64,000 nucleotides of DNA from Trypanosoma brucei (taxonomy: Eukaryota), in NCBI GenBank assembly GCA_000002445.1, contig CP000068.1:1056001-1120000 (forward strand), in the 5' to 3' direction. A program made the position numbers and the translations under genes. Positions 1 to 46,435 of this stretch are shown one piece after another (the first letter of the stretch is position 1; the number at the start of each line of letters is the position of its first letter). The notes below the pieces were generated by a model that searched no databases, was not told where the DNA came from, and saw nothing but the letters and a program-made list of their open reading frames with translations.

Positions 1-3000
1 CGCAGCAACTCGGATACCATGGTAATGCGCATCGCCGAAGGTAAGAAATAGAGAAGGAGCTGCTCAGCATTTGCGATAAATTGTGGTGTGAACGGAACCA
101 GCGATTTCACAACGCGGTGGATCAAGGAGGGAGAAACGCCCAAGAAGATCAACCAGACGACCACAAGGACTGTCAAAAGAGATGCATCTCCCTGCAGCAA
201 CTCCCTTGCTTTAGCATCAAATGGAAGAATCAATACAGCGTCCTGCAGAAAATTGTTCGGCATCGATATAGCTGATTCTAGCATTATCAGCGCGACAGCC
301 AATGTTGCGCTTTGAAGAGAATCTGTGGTATTGGAAGTTTGGTAATCCACGGCATGTACAGCTGCTTCTTTGAGTAGGTTGTTGAATTCAACGTCTTTAA
401 TAGTCACCCTGCGAAGAACACTATCGAGTACCCGAAGAACCATGCGCGTGCTCCACGTCACACCAAAATTGGAGGTACCAGCACCTTCAAAAACAAGCCG
501 ACTTAGGGAATCACACAATCTTTGTAGTTTAAACATACATTTTTCCTTGTGAGAAGACTCCCCCCAAGCAGCGCACGTTCCTGTCGCCTTCGCGACAAGT
601 TGAATCAGGAAACGCACGTGTTCTGTATGTATGAAAGAAATTGAAGAGCCTCCCACTTCAATTTTGTTCACCTCCGCGGTGCGTGCGAGCGGAAGAATCC
701 AAGCGGAAAGTAGTTTGACATACGAGAACACATATTCAGCTGCCTTATGTGCCATACATGCAAATGTTCCCTCAACTGTAGCACTCAAGCTACCACTAGG
801 GTGCCCACCAACCGCCAACTGCAACAACGACTGCCGAGCGTAGAAACCAGAAAGAATTCCTTGTAAAGATACCGCACCGTACACAACTGTTGAGTAGGAT
901 GCGGTAAAGTCAGCACTGTCGAGAGGACAGGTTGGTAATTCACGAAGTTGTTGCAGCATCAAGGCAGCACCAGAGAGAAATGCAGAAAGTGACGGGTGCT
1001 TTCCAAAATGTCGGCAAAGCGTGTAAATGATGGCATCAAAAGAGCATGGAAGTAATTCTCTACGAAGTGAGTGCACGTAGGAGGTTTCACTTACACCTTC
1101 TCCCAGTTTGTGTATCATATGCAGACGATGGCACGTTTCATCAAGCGCTTTCGTCACCACATCTTTCAAAAGCGAGTCTACCGCTTCGATAGCTGCTGCG
1201 TTGTTTTCAGCGACAAACAACGAGGGACAAAACGGCGAGAGATTACTGCCTTTCCGGGCAGGAAACTTACGCCCGACAGAGCACCCCGCTAACGAATAAT
1301 GTAGTACCTTAAGCCAAAACAAACTGGCAACTGGCACAACATCACCGAATTGTTGCTGTAACTCTTCCACATGCACTATCAAAACCTCAACGAGTCCTGA
1401 AAAGGATGCCTCCTCGGAAGGTGCCTCCGACCCTGCACAACTCTCACTAGTAACCTCGGGAGGAATCGACAAAAGCACTCCAACGAAACTCGATATATCT
1501 CGCAGAAACCGGGTGTGGCTTTTAACCAAGTGGTCAAGTAAGATATGAAGCACAGAGAGCGCACGGTGCCGCATCCCCCGTTTCATAGTGCAGGTGAAAA
1601 TCGGAGTGATAGTCGTGTGATAACCTTTGTCATTGTAGAAAGGAATGCCAGACGTTATTCGGATATTGCCTCCGTTAGAATCCCACGTTGCTGCGCTCCT
1701 AAGGCTGAAAAGCACGACACAGACTCGTACAAACACGCTATTTTCTCCAGACGTGTTATGCTTCGAATCAAGATAAAGCGCCGAGTCGTGCATACTCAAC
1801 ACATCCAGCAAAACAGTTAGTAACCACGACGTTCCTTCATTCAGTGTGGCGTGGCCTCCATCCACTTCAACTACCTGCTCATCATTGAGACCCATCACAC
1901 ACAACTCCAGAAGTTTCAGCATGCTCTCCTCTGGAACTCGAAGACCCATCCGCCTCCTGCGAAACTCCCTGTAAGCGGAGGCCGCAGATTTCACATCATG
2001 GGTACGATGACACAAATCAAGCATATGCGTCAGTTCCGCTATCTCTGAATGTAGCTCCGGTGACTTGTATATGAAGCTCCGGTTGAGTAAGAAATACGCC
2101 ATTTCCACGTCACCTCCACACCCCTGCAGCACCGTTTTCCAAATAAAGGTAAAATCCACCTCCTTGACAACAGGCACCGGCCAAACCTGAAGTGCTAGAA
2201 GTATAATATGTCTCACCTCGTGCAACACAAAACACCGTCGTTGTTGATCTTCTGCCGTACTTGCGTCCTTATTCTCCTCACACAAAGTGTCATCCCCGCC
2301 ACGCCTATTACATTCCTTTCCTTGATTAGCTCTTTCCTTGTAATGGTGGCCCTGCCCCCTATGGCGAGGATTTCGGTGCTCTAGATGCCTCACACGCCGC
2401 GCACACGCCGTCAACGCCGCTTGTGCGATCCCTCGACTTTGCTGGTGACCCAACGCCAACAACGCAATGCGTATGAAGGAAAGTGGAGCGTGTGCAAAAG
2501 CAAATGAAAACCCTGCTATGTCGTGACTACTCAGCAGCCTCGCTTCATACTGTGTGAACAGAGACACTGCGTCAACCCACTGTTGCTGCTGCTTCAGTGA
2601 ATCGACCGTTTCAAACAAGTCAATATGCTCACTCTCGCTCAACGGAAGCTTCTTTGCCGGTGTGACGCTTCGTTCAGTTGTGCCGCGGTAGCGTAAAGCA
2701 GCTTCACTAGCAGTTTCAACAACTTGCAAGGCCTCCCGCCACCGCGGAGGGGTTGTTTGTGAGACCAACACGTCCATAATATACACGAGAGTGGTGCTCT
2801 TGTTAGTCGAATTATTGACTGCCACCACTTCATTACAATCACCTGCTATCGGATTGTGACACGGTTTTTGAGCACAAATAGAAATAGTCGCTTCAGCGAA
2901 AAGGGCTAGAGATAGTTCCCACATCTTTTCGCTCGGTTCAGTGCCTTCGAGAATGTTGACCGCGAGCCCTGTTTTTTCATTTGGGGGAAAGACACCACTT

Positions 3001-5390
3001 TCGTGCACAAGAGCGGCGACAGCAACCCGGCACAATTGCCACCTTTCCTTCTTTTCTTTAGTTTTCATTTGAAGTCTCTTGTTTTTTGTCAACCTTAGCA
3101 TATGCTCCAGCAACCCCTTTACGCGATAGTCCGCTATGGACTTAACGAGTGTGCCCAGCGTGGCAGTGATGTCGGGCACGGAGACTGAGTTTCTTTCCAT
3201 GTGAGTATGCGCAAGCATGGAAGCTAAATCGTTTACACTCTCTTGACGCTTCAGCACTTCTGATAGCCCGGGGACTACAACCGAGGAGTCAGACCCCATG
3301 CGAAATTGAGTGGGATTGTCATCTCGATGTTGGTGGTAAAAACAACCACCCTCTCTGAGAGAGACACCACAAATATCCACGGTAAACCGTCTGCTGAGAA
3401 ACTCCACTAGTTGCTGTATTTGCTTCATGGATTCGTCACTGACAGGAGATAGATCTTCCGTAATAATGTCATCGTCAACGTTAACGTGTGGGTCCCGCTT
3501 ACGGTTGCGACGGTTTTTATTTGTCGACTCATCGCCGCTTTGGGAAACCACCCGGGTCTTTCCTGCTTCACTTTCTCTATGTATGCGGTCCACGTAATTA
3601 TCGGCACCGAACCACATTGCCAACGCTGACGTCTCAGCAAAAAGCTCTCGTAGAAGCTCTTGCCAAGCGATGCATACACGCAGTTCATCCCCTTGTGCTT
3701 CTTTTTGGACATGGCGAAGAAACAAAGTGCTATTTGGAAAAAACACATCAGTCCAAAATTTTCTCCGCATCGCCGTACGAACAGAATTTGCGTCGAAAGA
3801 AAGTGAATCGGCAGAGCACTTTGAAACATCGCCGAAAGTGGGTTGCCGAATAACCCGGCATCCATCGATAACACGACAACTATTAACGCATGCGGTCATA
3901 ATTGTTCGGACGGTATCGACAACAACCCCAACGATAGCATCTCTCATTTCAACCTCGTGCTCATGAGTAAGGGCAGCAATCACAAGAGCGCCGTGCGACA
4001 TCAACAGCTGCAATACACGCTGCGCGTACTTGAGTTCAGAGTTGTCCAGCAGGCACACTGAGCAATCCTTCTCCCCATCCCCACCGTCCAGTAGCACTAA
4101 ACGTGCCGAAGCACACAACCGTATCAATGTGGTGGCATCCTCCTGCAAATGCTTCTCCTCGCTCTTCCGGGGTAGCAGATGTGGGGAGCACCGGAACTCA
4201 AACTGTCGCCTCCGCTGCTCAACCTTCAAAATAACCAAGTTAAGAACTGCCCTCCATTTCAATAGTTCTGTGTCGACTGCTGCACCCCAGTTTTCTCTTA
4301 GCTGTGCACACCACAAGAGTAAGTTCGCCGCATTGCACTCGAGGAAATGTGAGGGTGCCGTATCATCCCTTTTAACATCTTTTCCCTCACTCATTATGTA
4401 AGTGGGTAGATCGCGAATTACACAACCGTCAAGCATCTGTTCCAAAGCGATTTGAAGAACGTGTTCCATTGCTTGGGGCCGAAGGTTAGCGTTGTTGGCG
4501 ACCGCAGATATCAGTGAGTTTAAACTACAGCGCTCTGTCAGGTTATCGCAAACTCCGTTTCCCTCTACTCCTACCTCCCTTGGTGTGCCTTCGTGGTACG
4601 TGCAAACACGCAGTAACGTATATACTGCATCTTCCCACGATGAGGTGAAGCAGTCTGACATCTGCCCCTGTAACTTCAGCCAATGGGACTTATTACCAGG
4701 ACCATCGGCCTGATCTGAAGGTTCAAACACATCACGCACGCCAAGAAGCAGTTCAACTTGAATTACTCGAGTTTTCGTGTGTGGTCCTAAATTACACAAA
4801 TCAACAGCGCGAACTGACGAGTGCTCCTCCGTAAGTGATGCATTTGCCAGGAGAATATTCCTTGCGAACATTAACTGTTCCCTTCGCTTATCAGTCTCGA
4901 ATGTTGAAAATTCGTTAGAGTTACTACTTTGTCCACTCCCATGCTGTTGCCAGCTGTCCATAGCACGCAGAGCACTACGTACAATATCAGGCTCAAGCTG
5001 CAGCCTTTGTTCAGTGGCGTGTCGCACAAGCATCACCACCGCTCGCCAGCTCCCCATGCTGATAACGGCCTCTGACGCAAGAGCGGCGCCAAGCAGTACG
5101 TTACACAAATCCTCATCATCTTTTTTAATATCAGTAGTCACTGCACCAGTGCCCGCAGTTGTGGGGGTAGTTTTTTCATTCACTGCGATGAACTGACTAC
5201 TTAAACGGAGGACAAATTCCCACTGTCCGTTAGCTACTAAAAATGGGAAAAGTGTTTTGTATGGGAGGCTGCGAAGCGAGGTTCTGGCTTTCTCACACCC
5301 ACGGAGCACGCGTAAACAGGCGCGCCAGTCACCGCAATCAATATGTTTGGAAAAATATGTCGATAGAGAGTCACGTAGCCGTCCGGCCAT
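1..5390 (-). CDS. Large hypothetical protein, >=1796 aa inside the window, running off the window start (no stop within window)
   Basis: Manual minus-strand translation. A TAG at 5459-5457 is followed by the first ATG at 5390-5388. The frame was spot-checked open at about 4700, 4000, 3150, continuously through 2820-1320, at 620 and at 60-1. It is absent from the ORF track because it lacks an in-window stop. A T-run in minus sense lies at 5441-5460, and a polyY(-) tract at 5560-5760 sits upstream of the ATG. Confidence 0.7.
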   Translation of the reverse strand, partial: MAGRLRDSLSTYFSKHIDCGDWRACLRVLRGCEKARTSLRSLPYKTLFPFLVANGQWEFVLRLSSQFIAVNEKTTPTTAGTGAVTTDIKKDDEDLCNVLLGAALASEAVISMGSWRAVVMLVRHATEQRLQLEPDIVRSALRAMDSWQQHGSGQSSNSNEFSTFETDKRREQLMFARNILLANASLTEEHSSVRAVDLCNLGPHTKTRVIQVELLLGVRDVFEPSDQADGPGNKSHWLKLQGQMSDCFTSSWEDAVYTLLRVCTYHEGTPREVGVEGNGVCDNLTERCSLNSLISAVANNANLRPQAMEHVLQIALEQMLDGCVIRDLPTYIMSEGKDVKRDDTAPSHFLECNAANLLLWCAQLRENWGAAVDTELLKWRAVLNLVILKVEQRRRQFEFRCSPHLLPRKSEEKHLQEDATTLIRLCASARLVLLDGGDGEKDCSVCLLDNSELKYAQRVLQLLMSHGALVIAALTHEHEVEMRDAIVGVVVDTVRTIMTACVNSCRVIDGCRVIRQPTFGDVSKCSADSLSFDANSVRTAMRRKFWTDVFFPNSTLFLRHVQKEAQGDELRVCIAWQELLRELFAETSALAMWFGADNYVDRIHRESEAGKTRVVSQSGDESTNKNRRNRKRDPHVNVDDDIITEDLSPVSDESMKQIQQLVEFLSRRFTVDICGVSLREGGCFYHQHRDDNPTQFRMGSDSSVVVPGLSEVLKRQESVNDLASMLAHTHMERNSVSVPDITATLGTLVKSIADYRVKGLLEHMLRLTKNKRLQMKTKEKKERWQLCRVAVAALVHESGVFPPNEKTGLAVNILEGTEPSEKMWELSLALFAEATISICAQKPCHNPIAGDCNEVVAVNNSTNKSTTLVYIMDVLVSQTTPPRWREALQVVETASEAALRYRGTTERSVTPAKKLPLSESEHIDLFETVDSLKQQQQWVDAVSLFTQYEARLLSSHDIAGFSFAFAHAPLSFIRIALLALGHQQSRGIAQAALTACARRVRHLEHRNPRHRGQGHHYKERANQGKECNRRGGDDTLCEENKDASTAEDQQRRCFVLHEVRHIILLALQVWPVPVVKEVDFTFIWKTVLQGCGGDVEMAYFLLNRSFIYKSPELHSEIAELTHMLDLCHRTHDVKSAASAYREFRRRRMGLRVPEESMLKLLELCVMGLNDEQVVEVDGGHATLNEGTSWLLTVLLDVLSMHDSALYLDSKHNTSGENSVFVRVCVVLFSLRSAATWDSNGGNIRITSGIPFYNDKGYHTTITPIFTCTMKRGMRHRALSVLHILLDHLVKSHTRFLRDISSFVGVLLSIPPEVTSESCAGSEAPSEEASFSGLVEVLIVHVEELQQQFGDVVPVASLFWLKVLHYSLAGCSVGRKFPARKGSNLSPFCPSLFVAENNAAAIEAVDSLLKDVVTKALDETCHRLHMIHKLGEGVSETSYVHSLRRELLPCSFDAIIYTLCRHFGKHPSLSAFLSGAALMLQQLRELPTCPLDSADFTASYSTVVYGAVSLQGILSGFYARQSLLQLAVGGHPSGSLSATVEGTFACMAHKAAEYVFSYVKLLSAWILPLARTAEVNKIEVGGSSISFIHTEHVRFLIQLVAKATGTCAAWGESSHKEKCMFKLQRLCDSLSRLVFEGAGTSNFGVTWSTRMVLRVLDSVLRRVTIKDVEFNNLLKEAAVHAVDYQTSNTTDSLQSATLAVALIMLESAISMPNNFLQDAVLILPFDAKARELLQGDASLLTVLVVVWLIFLGVSPSLIHRVVKSLVPFTPQFIANAEQLLLYFLPSAMRITMVSELL

Positions 5391-6255
5391 AAAAGGAAAG
5401 TTATTATTCCTCGTATTGGTGTGCTGCGCTAATGTAAACGAAAATACGAAAAAAAAACTATTAATTAGATCAAATCCAAAGAATATCCGTCTCGGACCTT
5501 TTTTGATGTGTGCACGCGGGCAAGTAGTTGTTTTTGTAAGTAGTCCGACCTCACTGTGAAGAGGATGGCACTGCACAAGGAAATGGGCAACTTCCCACAA
5601 TAGTTATGACTAATCCCTGCAATGCGATAACGGTAAAAGGGGAGTGCCTCATTGTTTAAAGCAAAAACAGAGAAGGTGTAATGCTGAATGTGCCACAAGG
5701 AGAGTTGGAGTAGCCAAAACAGGCTAACAGTGCCATAAAGTGGCACAGGAAACGTTTTAACACTGCAGCGAGGGTTAGCAGTCATTAAAAAAAATGTGTA
5801 AAGTGCTTGTTTTATACGTGAATGATTCATTCAACTGTAAAATCGGGGGAAATGAAACAAGCAACTCTTTTCGCACTCATACAGTGTCTTTTTTCATTCA
5901 TCCCCCTTCCAACTATCTTGTCACTCACTACAATCGGCGACCTCCGCGCCATAGACACCTATAAGCTCATCCGCAAAAACGCCCTCGATCCTTTCCAGTC
6001 ACCCTTAATTTAACTCGCATTAAGACACCTTCTCTGCGTGCCATACTCTCCCAAGAGAGACCACCGACAAACCACTAATAACCGTAGCGCATTTAGAACC
6101 CCCGACCGCGCCCTTGGTAACCAACATCTGCTATATCAGTTTCCAAGCGAGGTGGTTGGGAAGCCGATACTCTTGTCCTCCCCTTAAACCAAAATAAAGA
6201 AACTTTTCCTCACGCGACACCAATGTTTCTTGAAGGAGGGAGGAGGGGGGAGGTG

Positions 6256-6543
6256 CTACTCCATACCGAGGGATCCCGGGGGCAGCCCTTGCAGCATCTC
6301 TTTTTCCCGTTGCTCCCTCGAAGCGTTCATCAAACGCATAACCTCAAAGTGCCGTGCGATGCACTTCCGCTGGCAAGCCTCCATCTTTTGTAGTTTAGCG
6401 TCCGGTAGAACCCCTTCAACTAATTCGTGTCGGGTGAGGTTACGGTCATAACATATGTCCCAGCATTGCTCAAGCGCACTATTTGCGAGATCAAGCATCC
6501 CGTAGCGCTCCATAGCCTGCATGAGCATCATTTGGCTCTGCAT
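6256..6543 (-). CDS. Small twin-CX3C protein (95 aa), possible small Tim-like/intermembrane-space protein
   Basis: Track ORF 6256..6561 opens with TTG. The first ATG is at 6543-6541 (MQSQMMLMQAMERYG...). Motifs are CWDIC ... CQRKC, two CX3C pairs about 25 residues apart. The orientation fits the surrounding minus-strand polycistronic unit. A polyY(-) tract (purine-rich on +) lies upstream at about 6780-6900. Confidence 0.4.
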   Translation of the reverse strand: MQSQMMLMQAMERYGMLDLANSALEQCWDICYDRNLTRHELVEGVLPDAKLQKMEACQRKCIARHFEVMRLMNASREQREKEMLQGLPPGSLGME

Positions 6544-6715
6544 GACTACTTCCAGCCACAAGTGATTGAAGTGGATAAGAAACGAAAGTAATTAACACTT
6601 TCCTTGTAACTTATTGCACGGCTACTCCCCCTGTGCGCTCTGTTTGACCGGCAAAAAAGATACCTACGTCTGGAGGAAAAAAAAATCCCTAAGTGATTTT
6701 TGGCACGCCTTCCTG

Positions 6716-6736
6716 TATATATATATATATATATAT
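6716..6736. repeat. (TA)10 microsatellite
   Basis: Read directly. Confidence 0.95.
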
Positions 6737-6960
6737 TAGGTCCGTAGTCCCCGTGGGTAAAGAATGCGCGAAGGTATTTGAAGATGTGAAAGTGTGCAAG
6801 GGAAGAAAAGAACCGAAAGGTGACTTGGAAAAACGTAACTTAGAAGTTACATGAATAAAAATGAAGGCAGTAGCGACAACATCGTGTAGAAATGGGGAGA
6901 AGAGAATCGTGAAGAAAGAAGATTTGCACAGCTGTCCATGTAAGATCGTACGCTACATTT

Positions 6961-7262
6961 TCTATTTTTATTTTCTTCTTTCCCCACCAACGCCACCGCC
7001 GTGAGGTGGCATCTTTCCATATAGATTTCACAGCTGGTAATTGATCTACTTTTGCTTTTTTTTTTCCTTCCCCCCTTCCCTTGTGCCGCCGTTTCACATC
7101 CCTATTTGCGCCCTCATTAAAATATACACCACCCTTTCATCAACTCGCAGTTGCAACCCTATCCACCCCTCATATTATTTTCTCCATTCGCCATTATTTA
7201 CACATTTTCCCTCCCCATTCTAAACTCCACCATTTCTTCCCCTCCTCCTCCTCCGGTTACTA
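6961..7262 (-). other. ~300-nt block that is almost pure C/T on + strand (purine/G-rich in transcript sense) between SOD and the small CX3C ORF
   Basis: ttttctatttttattttcttctttccccacc ... cctcctcctcctcc. The transcript-sense G-rich stretch GGAGGAGGAGGAGGGG could form a G-quadruplex. Confidence 0.8.
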
Positions 7263-7699
7263 AATCTTCCACTACAATGTGAACAAGTTTATGGTATTTT
7301 GAACTGAAGAAGCAAATAGGAACCAGAGGACGATAGAATCATTATAGAAGGTGCCGAAAATGTACGAGTAAAGGAAAATAAATAAAAATAAATAAGAGTC
7401 ATGGAGGAAAATACAAAGTTGTGAAGGGACCTAAGCATCCGATCCAACAGTAAGAAAAAAAGTGGGAGACATCAAGCTACGTTCGGTTGCGTATAACTTA
7501 ATTAACAGCTGCATCGCACATCCATGAACGGAAAGCACAACCTCCTTCCAGAAATATCTTCACTAAACTATAAAAGTAAGGGAGACAGTTGAGTCAAAAC
7601 CGTGAGAAGCATCAAAAAACAGTAAAGTTTAAAAAGTTAAAGGCGCGCACCGAAAAAAAAAATTAATGGATAAGCTGACCTTTTGCAGAGGCACTGAAG

Positions 7700-8416
7700 T
7701 TACTTCATAGCCTGTTCATACGTCCTTGAAACAAACTCCCAATCAACAATAGTCCAAATTTCCTTGAGGTAATCCACGCGCCGGTTTTCAAAGTCCTTGT
7801 AATATGCATGTTCCCACACATCCACTGTGAAGACGGGTCGGAGTCCTTTTGTGATTGGGCACCCGGCATTGCTGGTATTATCAATTACAAGAGGTTTACC
7901 CTTATTTTTCGGGTCCACACACAACCACGTCCAGCCAGAGCCAAAGTTGTTTGCTCCCGCTTGCATGAACGTGTCCTTAAAACCGTCAACTGAACCAAAC
8001 TGAGCAGTGAGGGCAGACTCCAGGGATTTGGGCATTGGCTTCCCATTGGGTGTAATGCACAACCAATAAAAGGAGTGGTTGAAGTGCTGTGCCGCTTGGT
8101 TGAACAAGACCTTCTTCTCAGAATCATTAGCTAAAGCAACGATAATATCCTCCATAGTTTTTCCATCGTATGTGGCTCCCGCCAGTGCATTCAACTTGTC
8201 AACATACGCCTTGTGATGCTTCGTGTAGTGCAGCTCCAACTGACGTGGGCTGAGCACCGGTGCACATCCGTCTTTCCAGTTGAACTGAAGCGGTGGCAAT
8301 TCCGCTGCTGCTCCATTTGGCTTCTTAAGGTTAGGCAAAGTTGCGTACTGCATGCACGCAAGGCCCAGTGGTGCCATGTGATGGCCCGTTGCGCAACGCA
8401 TCATGACAGACCTCAT
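7700..8416 (-). CDS. SODA: Iron superoxide dismutase with N-terminal mitochondrial-type presequence
   Basis: Fe/Mn-SOD motifs: HYTKHHKAY, FNQAAQHFNHSFYW and DVWEHAYY (metal ligands). Track ORF 7700..8443 begins with GTG. The first ATG at 8416-8414 gives MRSVMMRCATG... The gene symbol is by analogy with T. brucei mitochondrial Fe-SOD and is my recollection, not verified. Confidence 0.85.
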   Translation of the reverse strand: MRSVMMRCATGHHMAPLGLACMQYATLPNLKKPNGAAAELPPLQFNWKDGCAPVLSPRQLELHYTKHHKAYVDKLNALAGATYDGKTMEDIIVALANDSEKKVLFNQAAQHFNHSFYWLCITPNGKPMPKSLESALTAQFGSVDGFKDTFMQAGANNFGSGWTWLCVDPKNKGKPLVIDNTSNAGCPITKGLRPVFTVDVWEHAYYKDFENRRVDYLKEIWTIVDWEFVSRTYEQAMK

Positions 8417-8640
8417 ATGATAAGATAAAGTGCCTGCACACACCAGTTGCTTTCCAGTTCCTCTTATTTTCCCTATGCCAAAACCTCGCTCACAAATGAT
8501 CTATACTCTCCTCGGTTTGAACGAAACCTCTTTTTTCTCCAGTGTGTCGCAAAGCCAACTCTTGATATATAGTGACAGCAATAATTTTTTTTTTTAAATG
8601 TTTTCTTCCACTACCCAGCTGCTAATACGCAAGCTGTCAA

Positions 8641-42576: not shown

Positions 42577-43802
42577 GTTAACAGGACAAAAAGCTTCTAC
42601 CAATTTTACTACTGATACCAATTTCAGAACATAAAGCACACAATTGAAACTAATGGGGAAATAGAGATAGCTTATTACTCGCACATGGCACGAAACTAGA
42701 ACCAACAGCTGAGGAAGTCTAATGAACCAAACAATAAAATGAAGGTCCGGCAACAAAAAGGAACTTGGAGACCGAATATCGACAACAGATCATGGGGATG
42801 GAGAGGTTTAGCATACGCATGGAGAAAGCAAATACAGTTATCGGTGAGACGACACACAAAAACAAAGAAGCTAATATTACGTGGACGCAGGGCTGAAACA
42901 CCATTCAGAGCTGGTCTATACTGTCACCAACCCGCCAAAGCAGCAGCAAAGCAGTAAATATATACCTACGTACGTATATACTTGAAGATACCTATCTCCA
43001 GAATGGCAAAGACGATCCTCATACCCACATCGCCCCTCTACCGGACACACACACGCACACCCTGGGGTGGCATAAGCACATCTAAAAAGCATACCCAATA
43101 TGACATTTGGTGTTACAATTTTTGGCATGTCACGCGAGTGCACACATGTGCGAAGGTGAAAGCTTGCTTTACCCCCAAGTAAACAGAAGATGGTTGCCCA
43201 CCAAGTAAGCCTGCATACAACCCAGTGAGAGCGCGCAGTGCGCACCTTTGTAACAAAGTTTATTTGCACGATATGCGCAAGTAACAGGAAATTCCTAAAA
43301 ATATGTGGCGTATTTTTTGTAGTCGTATATGTAGGTTGTATCCCATAAAGCTGTCGTCCACCATGTTAATATACAATAGTCAAAAAACAAGAGGTTTCTG
43401 AATAGATGACATGGGATATGGTGTAAGCAAAGTAGTAAAGACGTTGGTACGCACCTAAACTCGCTGATCACGTGGGTAAGGTGAAGCACAAAGGTAAAAA
43501 AAATAACTCTGATCTCCACTTTAGCGACCTTCAGTATTCCCGACAGACCACCAATTACAATGCAGTTGCACTAGAATATCCCATATACACACTATTAAAT
43601 ATACCATCAACGTTTATTCATAATTTACAGTGTGCTGTGCCAAAAAAAAAATTTTGCTTACACTTTGTCGCAAACACATCTCGGTGGCATCACGTGTGCT
43701 AACACGGGGCAAGCAGTACGGTAGTGCAGCAATTTCTTCACCAATCTCTGTACTCGGTAAACTGGTCGAGGTACACCCCAGTCTCTTTTTTTTTACATAA
43801 TA

Positions 43803-43814
43803 GGGGGGGGGGGG
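43803..43814 (+). repeat. G12 homopolymer
   Basis: ggggggggggggg read directly from the sequence. Confidence 0.95.
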
Positions 43815-44224
43815 TAAAGGCTGCCTCAGTGGCGGTGCCACGCGAAAGAGATTGCCGAAGGATATTACCGATGGAATCTCTCCACCAGCGGGAGAATTAC
43901 CTTACAGTTTTCAACTAGAAAGGTGACAATAAAAAAAACGCACCTCGTTCACGATCCAATGAGCTTGTAAGTGTCACCGTAGTGTACATGTAGCGCCACC
44001 GCAACTACCAGCAGATAGACATATACGTGCATAAGTTACCCAACAATGCTACGTCTTCTCACAAGGCGCAGGCTGACCTCCCCCCGTCTATTTACCCAAT
44101 GCGCCAGACTTTTGCAACGCACAATCCCTCCTAGCACACCAGACAGCCCTTAATTCAGTATCAGCAAATTTGGACACGATAGTTCACAACCCCTCTGTCC
44201 TCTCAACCACACTTGTCCGGCTAC

Positions 44225-44294
44225 CGGCACGTGCGCGTCCCATTTTCGTGTACAGCCCCACTTTCCTTCAGCGTAACTGCACGCGCACGTGCCG
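44225..44294. repeat. 14-bp perfect inverted repeat (cggcacgtgcgcgt / acgcgcacgtgccg) with 42-nt spacer; each arm contains a CACGTG palindrome
   Basis: Arm 1 at 44225-44238. Arm 2 at 44281-44294 is its exact reverse complement. Confidence 0.9.
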
Positions 44295-44661
44295 CTCCCA
44301 CAACTAGGCAGATTAAAAGGCGGCTGAAAGACTCCTGGCAGTGAACCCCTACACACGTTGCGCCGCACCTGCTTGTTGGGCTCCCGCTCCTCGGCCCCTG
44401 TAGGACGGTGTGGCCACTGAAGCGTCCTCTGACTTCATTTACCCGGCGGAAGCGTCCTATCGATCATATTCTTTTACCTGTTAGCTCTCTTTCTCGGGCG
44501 CTTCCTCTTGAAATTTAGCCCTCCCCCTCCCCTTAGGGCTCGAGCGTATAGTTCACCGCCCAGAACGCATTGCCACCACGCCCTCCCAGCCTCTCGGCCA
44601 GTTCTTTTTTTTTTTTTTGCGTTGCCCTCTCCGACTCCTCGAAAGGCTTAATGTTTTCGCA

Positions 44662-44672
44662 GTCTCCATTCC
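44662..44672 (-). repeat. C11 on + strand (G11 in minus-unit sense), preceded by T14 at 44605-44618
   Basis: Read directly from the sequence. Confidence 0.95.
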
Positions 44673-46064
44673 CCCCCCCCCCGCTTTCAGGCCAGTGCTC
44701 CCCTAGCTAATTAAAGACGCTGCTTCTCCATACGTGGTGGTATCTTTCAAAGCGGATCTCCCCCACAACAGCCTGTGCACTTGGTATACAAACCCTTTCA
44801 TTGCCACAGTTGGCCCCAACATATTTCCCTTTTTGACGAGTGTAACAGCGCCTCGTAGGAAGGGTATTACCCCTCAAGGTTTTGTAACCACTCTCATTCT
44901 TCATATATCTTGTTTTCCCCCTGCGCAGCCATCTCCTGTAGGGCGTCTCCTCTCCTCGGTTCCCTCTCGTGAGCCGTGTGTGCGTGCGTGCATGTGTAAT
45001 AATGCGTTTTTGCAGCTCTTTAGAGGGGCTGAGAGTTTTAACATGCATCCGAAACGGCCCTCAACACACGCTCTGCGGTAGCACACCCGTTTAGATTTGC
45101 TCCTGCAAGGCAATACCCATCGACGACATTAGAAGTGGAGTCTGTTACCATCCGTGGTGCTGCTGGACTTGAGTTCGACATAATGACGTTTGCGGGTGGC
45201 CCTCCATTTCGGACTCCGTGTCATTGCGACACATCCCTCGCACATTTTCGCACCGTCCTTTGGTGGCCTCCACCGTGCCGAAGACCCTCTTGTGACTCCC
45301 TCCGTTTTAAATATTCTCGAGCTTTCTAGCGAGCACTGCTGTGTGGTACGATCAGCTCTGCAACCGGGCGGTGTGGGTGTATCCGGTTTTCATCTGCACG
45401 AGGAATCTTACACAACTATTTTCATTGTGGCTCCTTTCGATGACGGTATGTTCGACGCCCCCTTTTTTTTAAAATGTTGTGTTACGGATTCATGTCGGTG
45501 CAAATGTGATGTGGATCCTGCACTTAGGGGCGACGATGGTCGGTGGTGTTTGTGGAGCTCCCGTCTATCTGGGTCCCTTCACGGAATCTGTACCGTGTCG
45601 TGTTGAGATGGCCTCGCCGCCCCCTTTTAAGATCGGATAGAGGTAACAAGTGAATTGTCGGGTATTAGGGTTACTCTCTTCTTTTGCGTGGAAGTATATT
45701 CCCCACCCGATGCAGAAGTGACGGTTCTGTTTGCGGAACTGGTTGAATCAAAACATATCTTTGCCGGTCTTGATGGGTGCGGCAGCCTCTTGATATTTTA
45801 TTGTAGCCCGAGTAGAAGTGGAGCCGAGGTCCGCGGTAAGTTGTTGGCCGGTCATTGTTGTAGCGTATGGTGCGCCACGTGATCTATCGTTTTTTATTTC
45901 CCCCTCATTTTCTTCGTAGCCGTCATTTTTCCTTTTTTTAGTATTGTAGAAAAGATGTGTATGGATGGTAAATGACGGATCATTCCCCTCGTTAGAGGAA
46001 GCTACTTTACTAATGCTTTTGTTGCCTTAGTCAAACTGCTTGTCTAATGAAACCGTGCTAAACT

Positions 46065-46091
46065 GTGGTGTGTGTGTGTGGGGGGGGGGGG
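46065..46091 (+). promoter_or_regulatory. (GT)7-8 followed by G11, 345 nt upstream of SMC3 ATG in sense orientation; GT-rich/G-tract promoter-like element
   Basis: tgtggtgtgtgtgtgtgggggggggggg read directly. GT-rich elements and G-runs have been reported at trypanosome Pol II start regions. Confidence 0.5.
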
Positions 46092-46383
46092 AAGGCCGTG
46101 TGCCGCGCCTGCTAGCACACCACAGCAGGTAACCATGCGCGGACGTTGCTTACACCTTGGTAGCTTCACTATCATTTTGCTGCTTAATGGTACCGTTTGT
46201 TAATTACCTTCAAGCAATGAGATAACCTTCTTATTACTGTTTTGTTTAATGTTGTCTTTTGTTCCACATCCTAAGCTTCTACATCAGGAGAGTGGTGTAT
46301 GTTGTTGCGCTGACTTTGTACTTTCCCCCTTAGACTGCACGGTTGCCAACATGAAATAACCTGAACTGATTGTTTAACATTAC

Positions 46384-46418
46384 CGTTTGTTTTGTTTTTT
46401 GACTACCCTCTTTCTTAG
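46384..46418 (+). promoter_or_regulatory. Polypyrimidine tract + AG immediately upstream of SMC3 ATG (candidate trans-splice acceptor)
   Basis: tttgttttgttttttgactaccctctttcttag, with AG at 46417-46418 and the ATG at 46436. Confidence 0.55.
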
Positions 46419-46435
46419 ACCACTTACAGGATACT

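What the first reader, a model, noticed from the sequence alone, without database searches (positions are those of the whole stretch)
6256..6543. Compact twin-CX3C ORF between SOD and the giant gene: candidate small Tim-like protein
A 95-aa product has CWDIC and CQRKC pairs, the hallmark of IMS small Tim/Mia40 substrates. It lies in minus-unit orientation with its own upstream polyY tract. The spacer between the pairs (about 25 aa) is longer than in canonical Tim9/10/8/13. It may therefore be a divergent, kinetoplastid-specific member or an unrelated disulfide-relay substrate.
Basis: partly seen in the sequence, partly recalled or inferred. Interest (0 to 1): 0.55.

Follow-up and report, generated by a model that had tools for sequence, protein, structure and literature searches.

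The report
Known trypanosome small Tim, TbTim11

Summary
Window 6256-6543 (minus strand) encodes a 95-aa, 11.1-kDa protein with CWDIC (residues 27-31) and CQRKC (57-61), 25 residues apart. It lies between a mitochondrial Fe-SOD (SODA) gene and a giant ORF, and has its own polypyrimidine tract and AG upstream.

It is not new. Three of the four published T. brucei TbTim11 primers match the window exactly, and the core of the fourth does too. TbTim11 is Tb927.5.3340, next to TbSODA, Tb927.5.3350. T. cruzi has the same order: SODA, small Tim, giant gene.

Wenger et al. 2017 showed that TbTim11 is an ERV1-dependent intermembrane-space protein. It sits in ~70-kDa soluble complexes and on the single TIM complex, is needed for growth and for TbTim17 import, and has an over-long CX3C spacing. 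Verdict: correct reading, already known, low interest.

The parts
6256..6543 (-). Coding sequence of TbTim11 (Tb927.5.3340 or a near-identical allele): 95 codons plus the TAG stop at 6258-6256
   Evidence: ORF and translation. Pfam PF02953 at 34.6 bits, cut-off 22.3. The published TbTim11 RNAi forward primer matches 6543-6525 exactly, and 17 nt of the reverse primer match 6259-6275. The substitution pattern against T. cruzi is that of a coding sequence.
6451..6465 (-). First CX3C motif, C27-W-D-I-C31, in the N-terminal helix
   Evidence: C27, W28 and C31 are invariant in alignment A1. C27 and C31 are invariant in the wider alignment A3.
6376..6450 (-). 25-residue spacer between the motifs (residues 32-56), about 10 residues longer than the canonical 11-16. 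The model places a short extra helix (residues 38-43) in the loop.
   Evidence: The spacer is 25 in all 14 close homologues. In the 12 distant representatives it is 23-28, with one of 38. The model has helices at 2-33, 38-43 and 48-84. The canonical 11-16 spacing and the note that TbTim11 and TbTim13 exceed 16 come from PMC5584982.
6361..6375 (-). Second CX3C motif, C57-Q-R-K-C61, in the C-terminal helix
   Evidence: C57, K60 and C61 are invariant in A1. C57 and C61 are invariant in A3.
6544..6669 (-). Inferred 5' UTR
   Evidence: The published TbTim11 qRT-PCR primers map to 6656-6637 (-) and 6552-6573 (+). That amplicon was used on cDNA to measure about 90% knock-down. The mature mRNA should therefore reach at least 6656. 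This is an inference.
6670..6685 (-). Polypyrimidine tract (6685-6672, TTTTTTTTTCCTCC) followed by AG (6671-6670): candidate trans-splicing acceptor
   Evidence: Read directly from the sequence. The position fits the qRT amplicon lying just downstream. The splice site itself was not tested.
7700..8443 (-). Upstream neighbour in the same transcription unit: mitochondrial Fe-superoxide dismutase SODA (context only). The listed ORF starts at a GTG, so the true ATG start is probably a few codons further in.
   Evidence: Pfam Sod_Fe_N and Sod_Fe_C. The best solved structure is 4H3E, E 7e-126, which is TcSODA according to the paper read. TbSODA is Tb927.5.3350.
1..5390 (-). Downstream neighbour: giant ORF running off the window start (context only)
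   Evidence: An open frame of 1867 codons with its first ATG at 5390. The T. cruzi gene in the same position encodes 4702 aa.

Best explanation
The ORF is TbTim11, one of the six small Tim proteins of Trypanosoma brucei. The window comes from T. brucei or a very close Trypanozoon relative, chromosome 5.

Proposed mechanism, from the published work on this gene:
- The ~11-kDa protein is made in the cytosol and enters the mitochondrial intermembrane space.
- It is trapped there by oxidation of its two CX3C pairs. Presumably C27-C61 form the outer and C31-C57 the inner disulfide, through the ERV1-dependent MIA pathway. This locks a helix-loop-helix hairpin.
- The hairpin assembles with other small Tims into soluble ~70-kDa, hexamer-sized complexes. 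It also docks on the single TIM (TbTim17) translocase.
- It acts as a chaperone for hydrophobic precursors, and it is required for import of TbTim17 itself.

Shown here: the ORF, family membership by profile, the fold, Cys and spacer conservation, synteny, and identity to TbTim11 through the published primers.

Taken from the literature: localisation, ERV1 dependence, the complexes and the RNAi phenotype.

Inferred: the disulfide pairing and the splice acceptor.
For: Family and conservation:
- Pfam zf-Tim10_DDP, E 1.4e-8, 34.6 bits against a cut-off of 22.3, covering residues 6-74.
- Orthologues at 83-49% identity in T. grayi, T. cruzi, T. vivax (named 'Tim10 DDP family zinc finger'), Leptomonas seymouri ('Mitochondrial import inner membrane translocase subunit') and Bodo saltans.
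- The four Cys are invariant and the spacer is fixed at 25.

Structure:
- AlphaFold2 model with mean pLDDT 85.3, a helical hairpin.

Identity with TbTim11:
- TbTim11 RNAi-F, qRT-F and qRT-R primers match the window with 0 mismatches at 6543-6525, 6656-6637 and 6552-6573. The reverse primer core matches at 6259-6275.
- TbTim11 is Tb927.5.3340 and TbSODA is Tb927.5.3350, so they are neighbouring gene numbers. The window's SOD best matches TcSODA, 4H3E.
- T. cruzi has the order SODA, 95-aa Tim10_DDP protein, 4702-aa gene on three contigs.
- Calculated mass 11.09 kDa; the TbTim numbers denote molecular weight.

Published function (PMC5584982):
- Mitochondrial and carbonate-soluble; levels collapse on TbERV1 RNAi.
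- Co-immunoprecipitates with Tim9, TbTim17, TbTim42 and TimRhom I.
- Found in 70-kDa soluble and >=700-kDa membrane complexes.
- RNAi stops growth, removes the TIM complex and strongly lowers TbTim17.
Against: I could not obtain the full Tb927.5.3340 protein sequence. Identity therefore rests on primer matches at both ORF ends and in the UTR, on gene-number adjacency and on synteny.

The published reverse primer encodes ...GMEE*, whereas the window has ...GME*. That is a one-codon difference, so the window is not the exact strain sequence used for the primer.

Direct sequence matches to solved small Tims are weak: E 0.03 to yeast Tim10 with the family profile, and Foldseek E about 0.7. The 25-residue spacer lies outside the canonical 11-16.
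Confidence: 0.97

Rival explanations
1. It is a small Tim, but a different paralogue: TbTim13, which also has an over-long CX3C spacing, or TbTim9, TbTim10, TbTim8/13 or TbTim12.
For: TbTim13 also has CX3C motifs more than 16 residues apart. The Pfam profile cannot tell paralogues apart.
Against: The published primers give different ORF starts for the other five paralogues. For example, TbTim13 starts ATGCAACCCCCCAACCCAC (MQPPNP) and TbTim12 starts ATGGGTCAGGACCAATCC. Only the TbTim11 primers match the window. The other genes are on other chromosomes: Tb927.10.11520, Tb927.4.3430, Tb927.7.2200, Tb927.3.1600 and Tb927.11.5390. This locus lies next to SODA, which is on chromosome 5. TbTim12 has only two Cys, whereas this ORF has four.
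Confidence: 0.01
2. It is a twin-CX3C substrate of the disulfide relay that resembles small Tims but has a function other than precursor chaperoning. One possibility is a purely structural subunit of the TIM complex or of a respiratory complex, as with the small-Tim-like subunits of Tetrahymena complex IV.
Against: TbTim11 is also found in soluble ~70-kDa complexes with other small Tims. Its depletion strongly lowers TbTim17, which the authors interpret as a requirement for TbTim17 import, the canonical small Tim role. It co-purifies with TIM subunits, while CoxIV stays in the unbound fraction.
Confidence: 0.02
3. It is a chance ORF in an intergenic spacer whose Cys pairs are coincidental.
For: Twin CX3C patterns occur in 4 of the 94 short ATG-ORFs of the window. 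Overlapping ORFs exist on the plus strand at 6230-6451 and 6427-6591.
Against: The Pfam hit is above the curated cut-off. Conservation reaches out to Bodo saltans. Conservation against T. cruzi is confined to the ORF, and substitutions are biased to the third codon position, 18/14/52. Published protein-level detection exists.
Confidence: 0.003

Closest known systems
TbTim11 (Tb927.5.3340) of Trypanosoma brucei (Harsman et al. 2016; Wenger et al. 2017, PMC5584982; Quinones et al. 2024, PMC10855554)
   Same: The ORF start, the ORF end and the upstream UTR match the published primers. The mass is 11 kDa. The twin CX3C motifs are more than 16 residues apart. The gene lies next to SODA.
   Different: There is one codon fewer at the C-terminus than the published reverse primer implies (GME* against GMEE*). 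A Logan contig from run ERR7929164 carries the same shorter allele.
Canonical small Tims: yeast and human Tim9, Tim10, Tim12/Tim10B, Tim8 and Tim13 (Pfam PF02953)
   Different: The spacer is 25 rather than 11-16 residues, with a predicted short helix in the loop. No one-to-one yeast or human orthologue can be assigned. It associates with a single TIM complex that handles both presequence and carrier substrates. No Mia40 is known in trypanosomes: TbERV1 is the only known MIA component.
TbTim13 (Tb927.10.11520)
   Same: [quoted passage not shown]
   Different: It is a different gene on a different chromosome with a different N-terminus (MQPPNP). TbTim13 acts in TIM complex assembly rather than TbTim17 import. 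In the 2024 size-exclusion study it was not in the 70-kDa pool.
Twin CX9C (CHCH) intermembrane-space proteins
   Same: They are small helical hairpins stapled by two disulfides and imported by the disulfide relay.
   Different: The motif here is CX3C, not CX9C. No CHCH family was reported at E<=10.

Membership tests
Small Tim family (Pfam PF02953, zf-Tim10_DDP) | Profile match above Pfam's gathering score | tested here: met
   34.6 bits against a cut-off of 22.3, E 1.4e-8, residues 6-74 on profile positions 2-60 of 64. Eleven of the 13 homologues carry a precomputed PF02953 hit.
Small Tim family (Pfam PF02953, zf-Tim10_DDP) | Twin CX3C motif with four conserved Cys | tested here: met
   C27, C31, C57 and C61 are the only Cys. 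They are invariant in 14 close sequences and in the 13-sequence alignment A3, which holds the query and 12 distant representatives.
Small Tim family (Pfam PF02953, zf-Tim10_DDP) | CX3C motifs normally separated by 11-16 residues | tested here: not met
   The spacer is 25. This is a typical feature rather than an absolute one. The literature accepts TbTim11 and TbTim13 as members although they exceed 16.
Small Tim family (Pfam PF02953, zf-Tim10_DDP) | Helix-loop-helix hairpin of about 10 kDa | tested here: met
Small Tim family (Pfam PF02953, zf-Tim10_DDP) | Intermembrane-space localisation with import dependent on the MIA/Erv1 pathway | not testable with these tools
   Published for TbTim11-HA: it co-fractionates with mitochondria, is carbonate-soluble, and its levels drop on TbERV1 RNAi (PMC5584982).
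Small Tim family (Pfam PF02953, zf-Tim10_DDP) | Assembly into ~70-kDa hetero-oligomers that chaperone hydrophobic precursors | not testable with these tools
   Published: 70-kDa soluble complexes, association with the TIM complex, and a requirement for TbTim17 import. Pairwise Y2H interactions are also published.
TbTim11 orthogroup (Tb927.5.3340) | Sequence identity with the T. brucei gene | tested here: met
   Three published primers match exactly, at the ORF start and at two sites in the UTR. Seventeen nt of the reverse primer match at the ORF end. None of these matches is expected by chance.
TbTim11 orthogroup (Tb927.5.3340) | Position immediately downstream of SODA (Tb927.5.3350) and upstream of a giant gene | tested here: met
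   Window order on the minus strand: SOD 7700-8443, Tim 6256-6543, giant ORF from 5390 downwards. The same order is found in T. cruzi. The SOD best matches TcSODA, 4H3E.
Twin CX9C / CHCH proteins | Two CX9C motifs, or a CHCH profile match | tested here: not met
   The motifs are CX3C. The Pfam scan at E<=10 returned only zf-Tim10_DDP.

The most novel reading that the evidence does not exclude
The conserved 25-residue loop between the CX3C motifs, about 10 residues longer than in canonical small Tims and predicted to hold a short extra helix at residues 38-43, may be a kinetoplastid-specific docking surface. It could explain why TbTim11 is the only one of the six small TbTims that binds loop 2 of TbTim17 in the published yeast two-hybrid table. 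On this reading TbTim11 would be the adaptor that tethers small Tim hexamers to the single TIM complex. Nothing here tests this. The fixed spacer length and the conserved loop residues (N35, L36, E40, L41, G44, K53, M54) are compatible with it.
Probability: 0.15. Interest if true: 0.35.

Novelty: already known. Interest (0 to 1): 0.08.

Why it matters
The result matters mainly as a calibration.

The gene itself is a named and experimentally characterised subunit of the trypanosome mitochondrial import machinery, and it is essential for normal growth of procyclic cells. Re-finding it adds no new biology.

The only open point is mechanistic: what the conserved, extended loop does.

Tried and rejected
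- **Exhaustive profile search of 1.84 billion representatives.** It gave only 15 hits. One (P0028, 1253 aa) is a spurious match to a Cys-rich repeat protein. P0018 (934 aa) looks like a fused gene model, and P0014 (158 aa) like an N-terminally over-extended one. The library carries no names, so I could not establish how far beyond Kinetoplastida the orthogroup reaches.
- **No T. brucei entry.** The protein search returned none, so I could not make a full-length alignment with Tb927.5.3340. Published primer sequences served as a substitute.
- **Plus-strand ORFs overlapping the locus** (6230-6451, 6427-6591). I rejected them because the codon-position bias of substitutions fits the minus-strand frame.
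- **CHCH / CX9C family.** No match.

Full report
**Observation.** On the minus strand, window 6543-6256 holds an ATG-initiated ORF of 95 codons ending in TAG. Its product is MQSQMMLMQAMERYGMLDLANSALEQCWDICYDRNLTRHELVEGVLPDAKLQKMEACQRKCIARHFEVMRLMNASREQREKEMLQGLPPGSLGME. It has a mass of 11.09 kDa and a pI of 5.7. It contains exactly four cysteines, arranged as C27-x3-C31 and C57-x3-C61 with 25 residues between the pairs.

- An Fe/Mn superoxide dismutase ORF lies upstream on the same strand at 7700-8443.
- A stop-free frame of 1867 codons, with its first ATG at 5390, runs off the start of the window downstream.
- A 14-nt polypyrimidine tract at 6685-6672 is followed by AG at 6671-6670, 127 nt upstream of the ATG.

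**Is it more than chance?** The motif alone is not: 4 of the 94 short ATG-ORFs in the window contain two CX3C patterns. Three other results settle the matter.
- The protein scores 34.6 bits on Pfam zf-Tim10_DDP, against a gathering cut-off of 22.3, E 1.4e-8. Nothing else is reported at E<=10, so there is no CHCH match.
- Aligned with two T. cruzi haplotypes, the DNA is conserved from the ATG to the stop codon and diverges immediately outside.
- Within the ORF, differences fall 18/14/52 on codon positions 1/2/3, with 38 synonymous against 22 non-synonymous codon changes.

**Relatives.** The word-indexed protein search found 13 homologues:
- one 100%-identical fragment from a Logan assembly;
- T. 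grayi (83%), T. cruzi (77%) and T. vivax (74%, named 'Tim10 DDP family zinc finger');
- Leptomonas seymouri (71%, named 'Mitochondrial import inner membrane translocase subunit');
- Bodo saltans (66%);
- several unnamed metagenomic sequences.

In their alignment C27, W28, C31, C57, K60 and C61 are invariant, as is a C-terminal GLPPGxL motif. The spacer is exactly 25 in all 14 sequences.

An exhaustive profile search of 1.84 billion cluster representatives found only 15 proteins at E<=0.001. Twelve of the fourteen genuine hits were aligned with the query. The other two, P0014 and P0018, look like over-extended or fused gene models. All twelve keep the four Cys, with spacers of 23-28 and one of 38. 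The fifteenth hit is a spurious match to a Cys-rich repeat protein. This is therefore a small, tight orthogroup with a characteristically long loop.

**Structure.** AlphaFold2 on the 14-sequence alignment gives mean pLDDT 85.3. The model is a helical hairpin with helices at 2-33 and 48-84 and a short helix at 38-43 in the loop.

Tim8 and human Tim9 follow further down the list. Foldseek also ranks the Tim9-Tim10 hexamer first, but not significantly (E 0.69). Direct sequence searches of PDB are weak, E 0.03 at best.

**Identity.** Wenger et al. [quoted passage not shown] The numbers are molecular weights. The authors state that small Tim CX3C motifs are normally 11-16 residues apart. They add that TbTim11 and TbTim13 were probably missed by earlier bioinformatics because theirs are more than 16 apart.

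TbSODA is Tb927.5.3350, the neighbouring gene number. The window's SOD best matches PDB 4H3E at E 7e-126, which is TcSODA. In T. cruzi the order SODA (233 aa), Tim10_DDP protein (95 aa), giant gene (4702 aa) is seen on three contigs.

The decisive result comes from the TbTim11 primers in Table S1 of Quinones et al. 2024 (PMC10855554). They map to the window as follows:
- RNAi-forward ATGCAGAGCCAAATGATGC matches 6543-6525 with no mismatch.
- qRT-forward matches 6656-6637 with no mismatch.
- qRT-reverse matches 6552-6573 with no mismatch.
- The core of RNAi-reverse matches 6259-6275.

The primers for the other five small TbTims begin with different codons. The window is therefore T. brucei, or a very close Trypanozoon relative, chromosome 5, and the ORF is TbTim11.

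The only discrepancy is that the published reverse primer encodes ...GMEE*, whereas the window has ...GME*. A Logan contig from run ERR7929164 is 99.1% identical to window 5919-7352 and carries the same shorter allele.

**How it works.** This section rests on the literature for this gene:
- Tagged TbTim11 co-fractionates with mitochondria and is released by carbonate at pH 11.5, like cytochrome c.
- Its steady-state level collapses when TbERV1, the only known trypanosomal MIA component, is depleted.
- It co-immunoprecipitates with Tim9, TbTim12, TbTim17, TbTim42 and TimRhom I.
- It occurs in soluble ~70-kDa complexes and in TIM complexes of 700 kDa or more.
- RNAi stops growth, abolishes the TIM complex and strongly reduces TbTim17. 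The authors interpret this as a requirement for TbTim17 import.

By analogy with solved small Tims, C27-C61 and C31-C57 should form the outer and inner disulfides that staple the hairpin. This pairing is inferred, not shown.

The qRT amplicon lies upstream of the ATG and was amplified from cDNA. The 5' UTR should therefore extend at least to 6656, which fits trans-splicing at the AG at 6671-6670. This too is an inference.

**Comparison and novelty.** The ORF meets the profile, motif, size and fold criteria of the small Tim family. It fails only the typical 11-16-residue spacing, an exception already documented for this very protein. It is not a CX9C/CHCH protein.

The gene is already known and characterised, so interest is low.

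One speculative reading remains unexcluded. The conserved extended loop might be the surface through which TbTim11, alone among the six small TbTims, binds loop 2 of TbTim17 in yeast two-hybrid assays. I give this about 15% probability.

Noticed in passing
window 6256-6261 (-): The ORF ends ...LGME*, but the published TbTim11 RNAi reverse primer (CTACTCCTCCATACCGAGGGATC) encodes ...LGMEE*. This is a one-codon (GAG) length difference at the C-terminus between this sequence and the strain used for primer design. A Logan contig (L004, run ERR7929164, 99.1% identical to window 5919-7352) has the same shorter allele.
   Followed up: partly
window 6552-6656 (-): The published 'TbTim11-qRT' primer pair maps upstream of the ATG, in the 5' UTR. 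The paper says the qRT primers were designed from the 3' UTR. This does no harm to their assay, and it incidentally shows that the mature mRNA includes this region.
   Followed up: yes
window 6716-6735: A (TA)10 microsatellite lies about 30 nt upstream of the polypyrimidine tract of the Tim11 gene. T. cruzi carries TA and TG microsatellites at the equivalent intergenic position.
   Followed up: no
window 1-5603 (-): A giant open frame of 1867 codons, with its first ATG at 5390, runs off the window start. The syntenic T. cruzi gene encodes 4702 aa and has no Pfam hit on record. Its function was not examined.
   Followed up: no
window 42757-46435: All ORFs of at least 200 aa lie on the minus strand up to 42756 and on the plus strand from 46436. 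This looks like a divergent strand-switch region between two polycistronic units, a likely transcription start region.
   Followed up: no
window 7700-8443 (-): The SOD ORF as listed starts at a GTG and is 247 aa, whereas T. cruzi SODA is 233 aa. The real start is probably one of the internal Met codons (M10, M14 or M15), leaving a short mitochondrial presequence.
   Followed up: no
P0018 and P0014 (database proteins, not in the window): Two database representatives of the Tim11 orthogroup are 934 aa and 158 aa long. The Tim11 domain is at the N-terminus of the first and the C-terminus of the second. Both are probably gene-model artefacts (a fusion and an over-extended start) rather than real fusions.
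   Followed up: no
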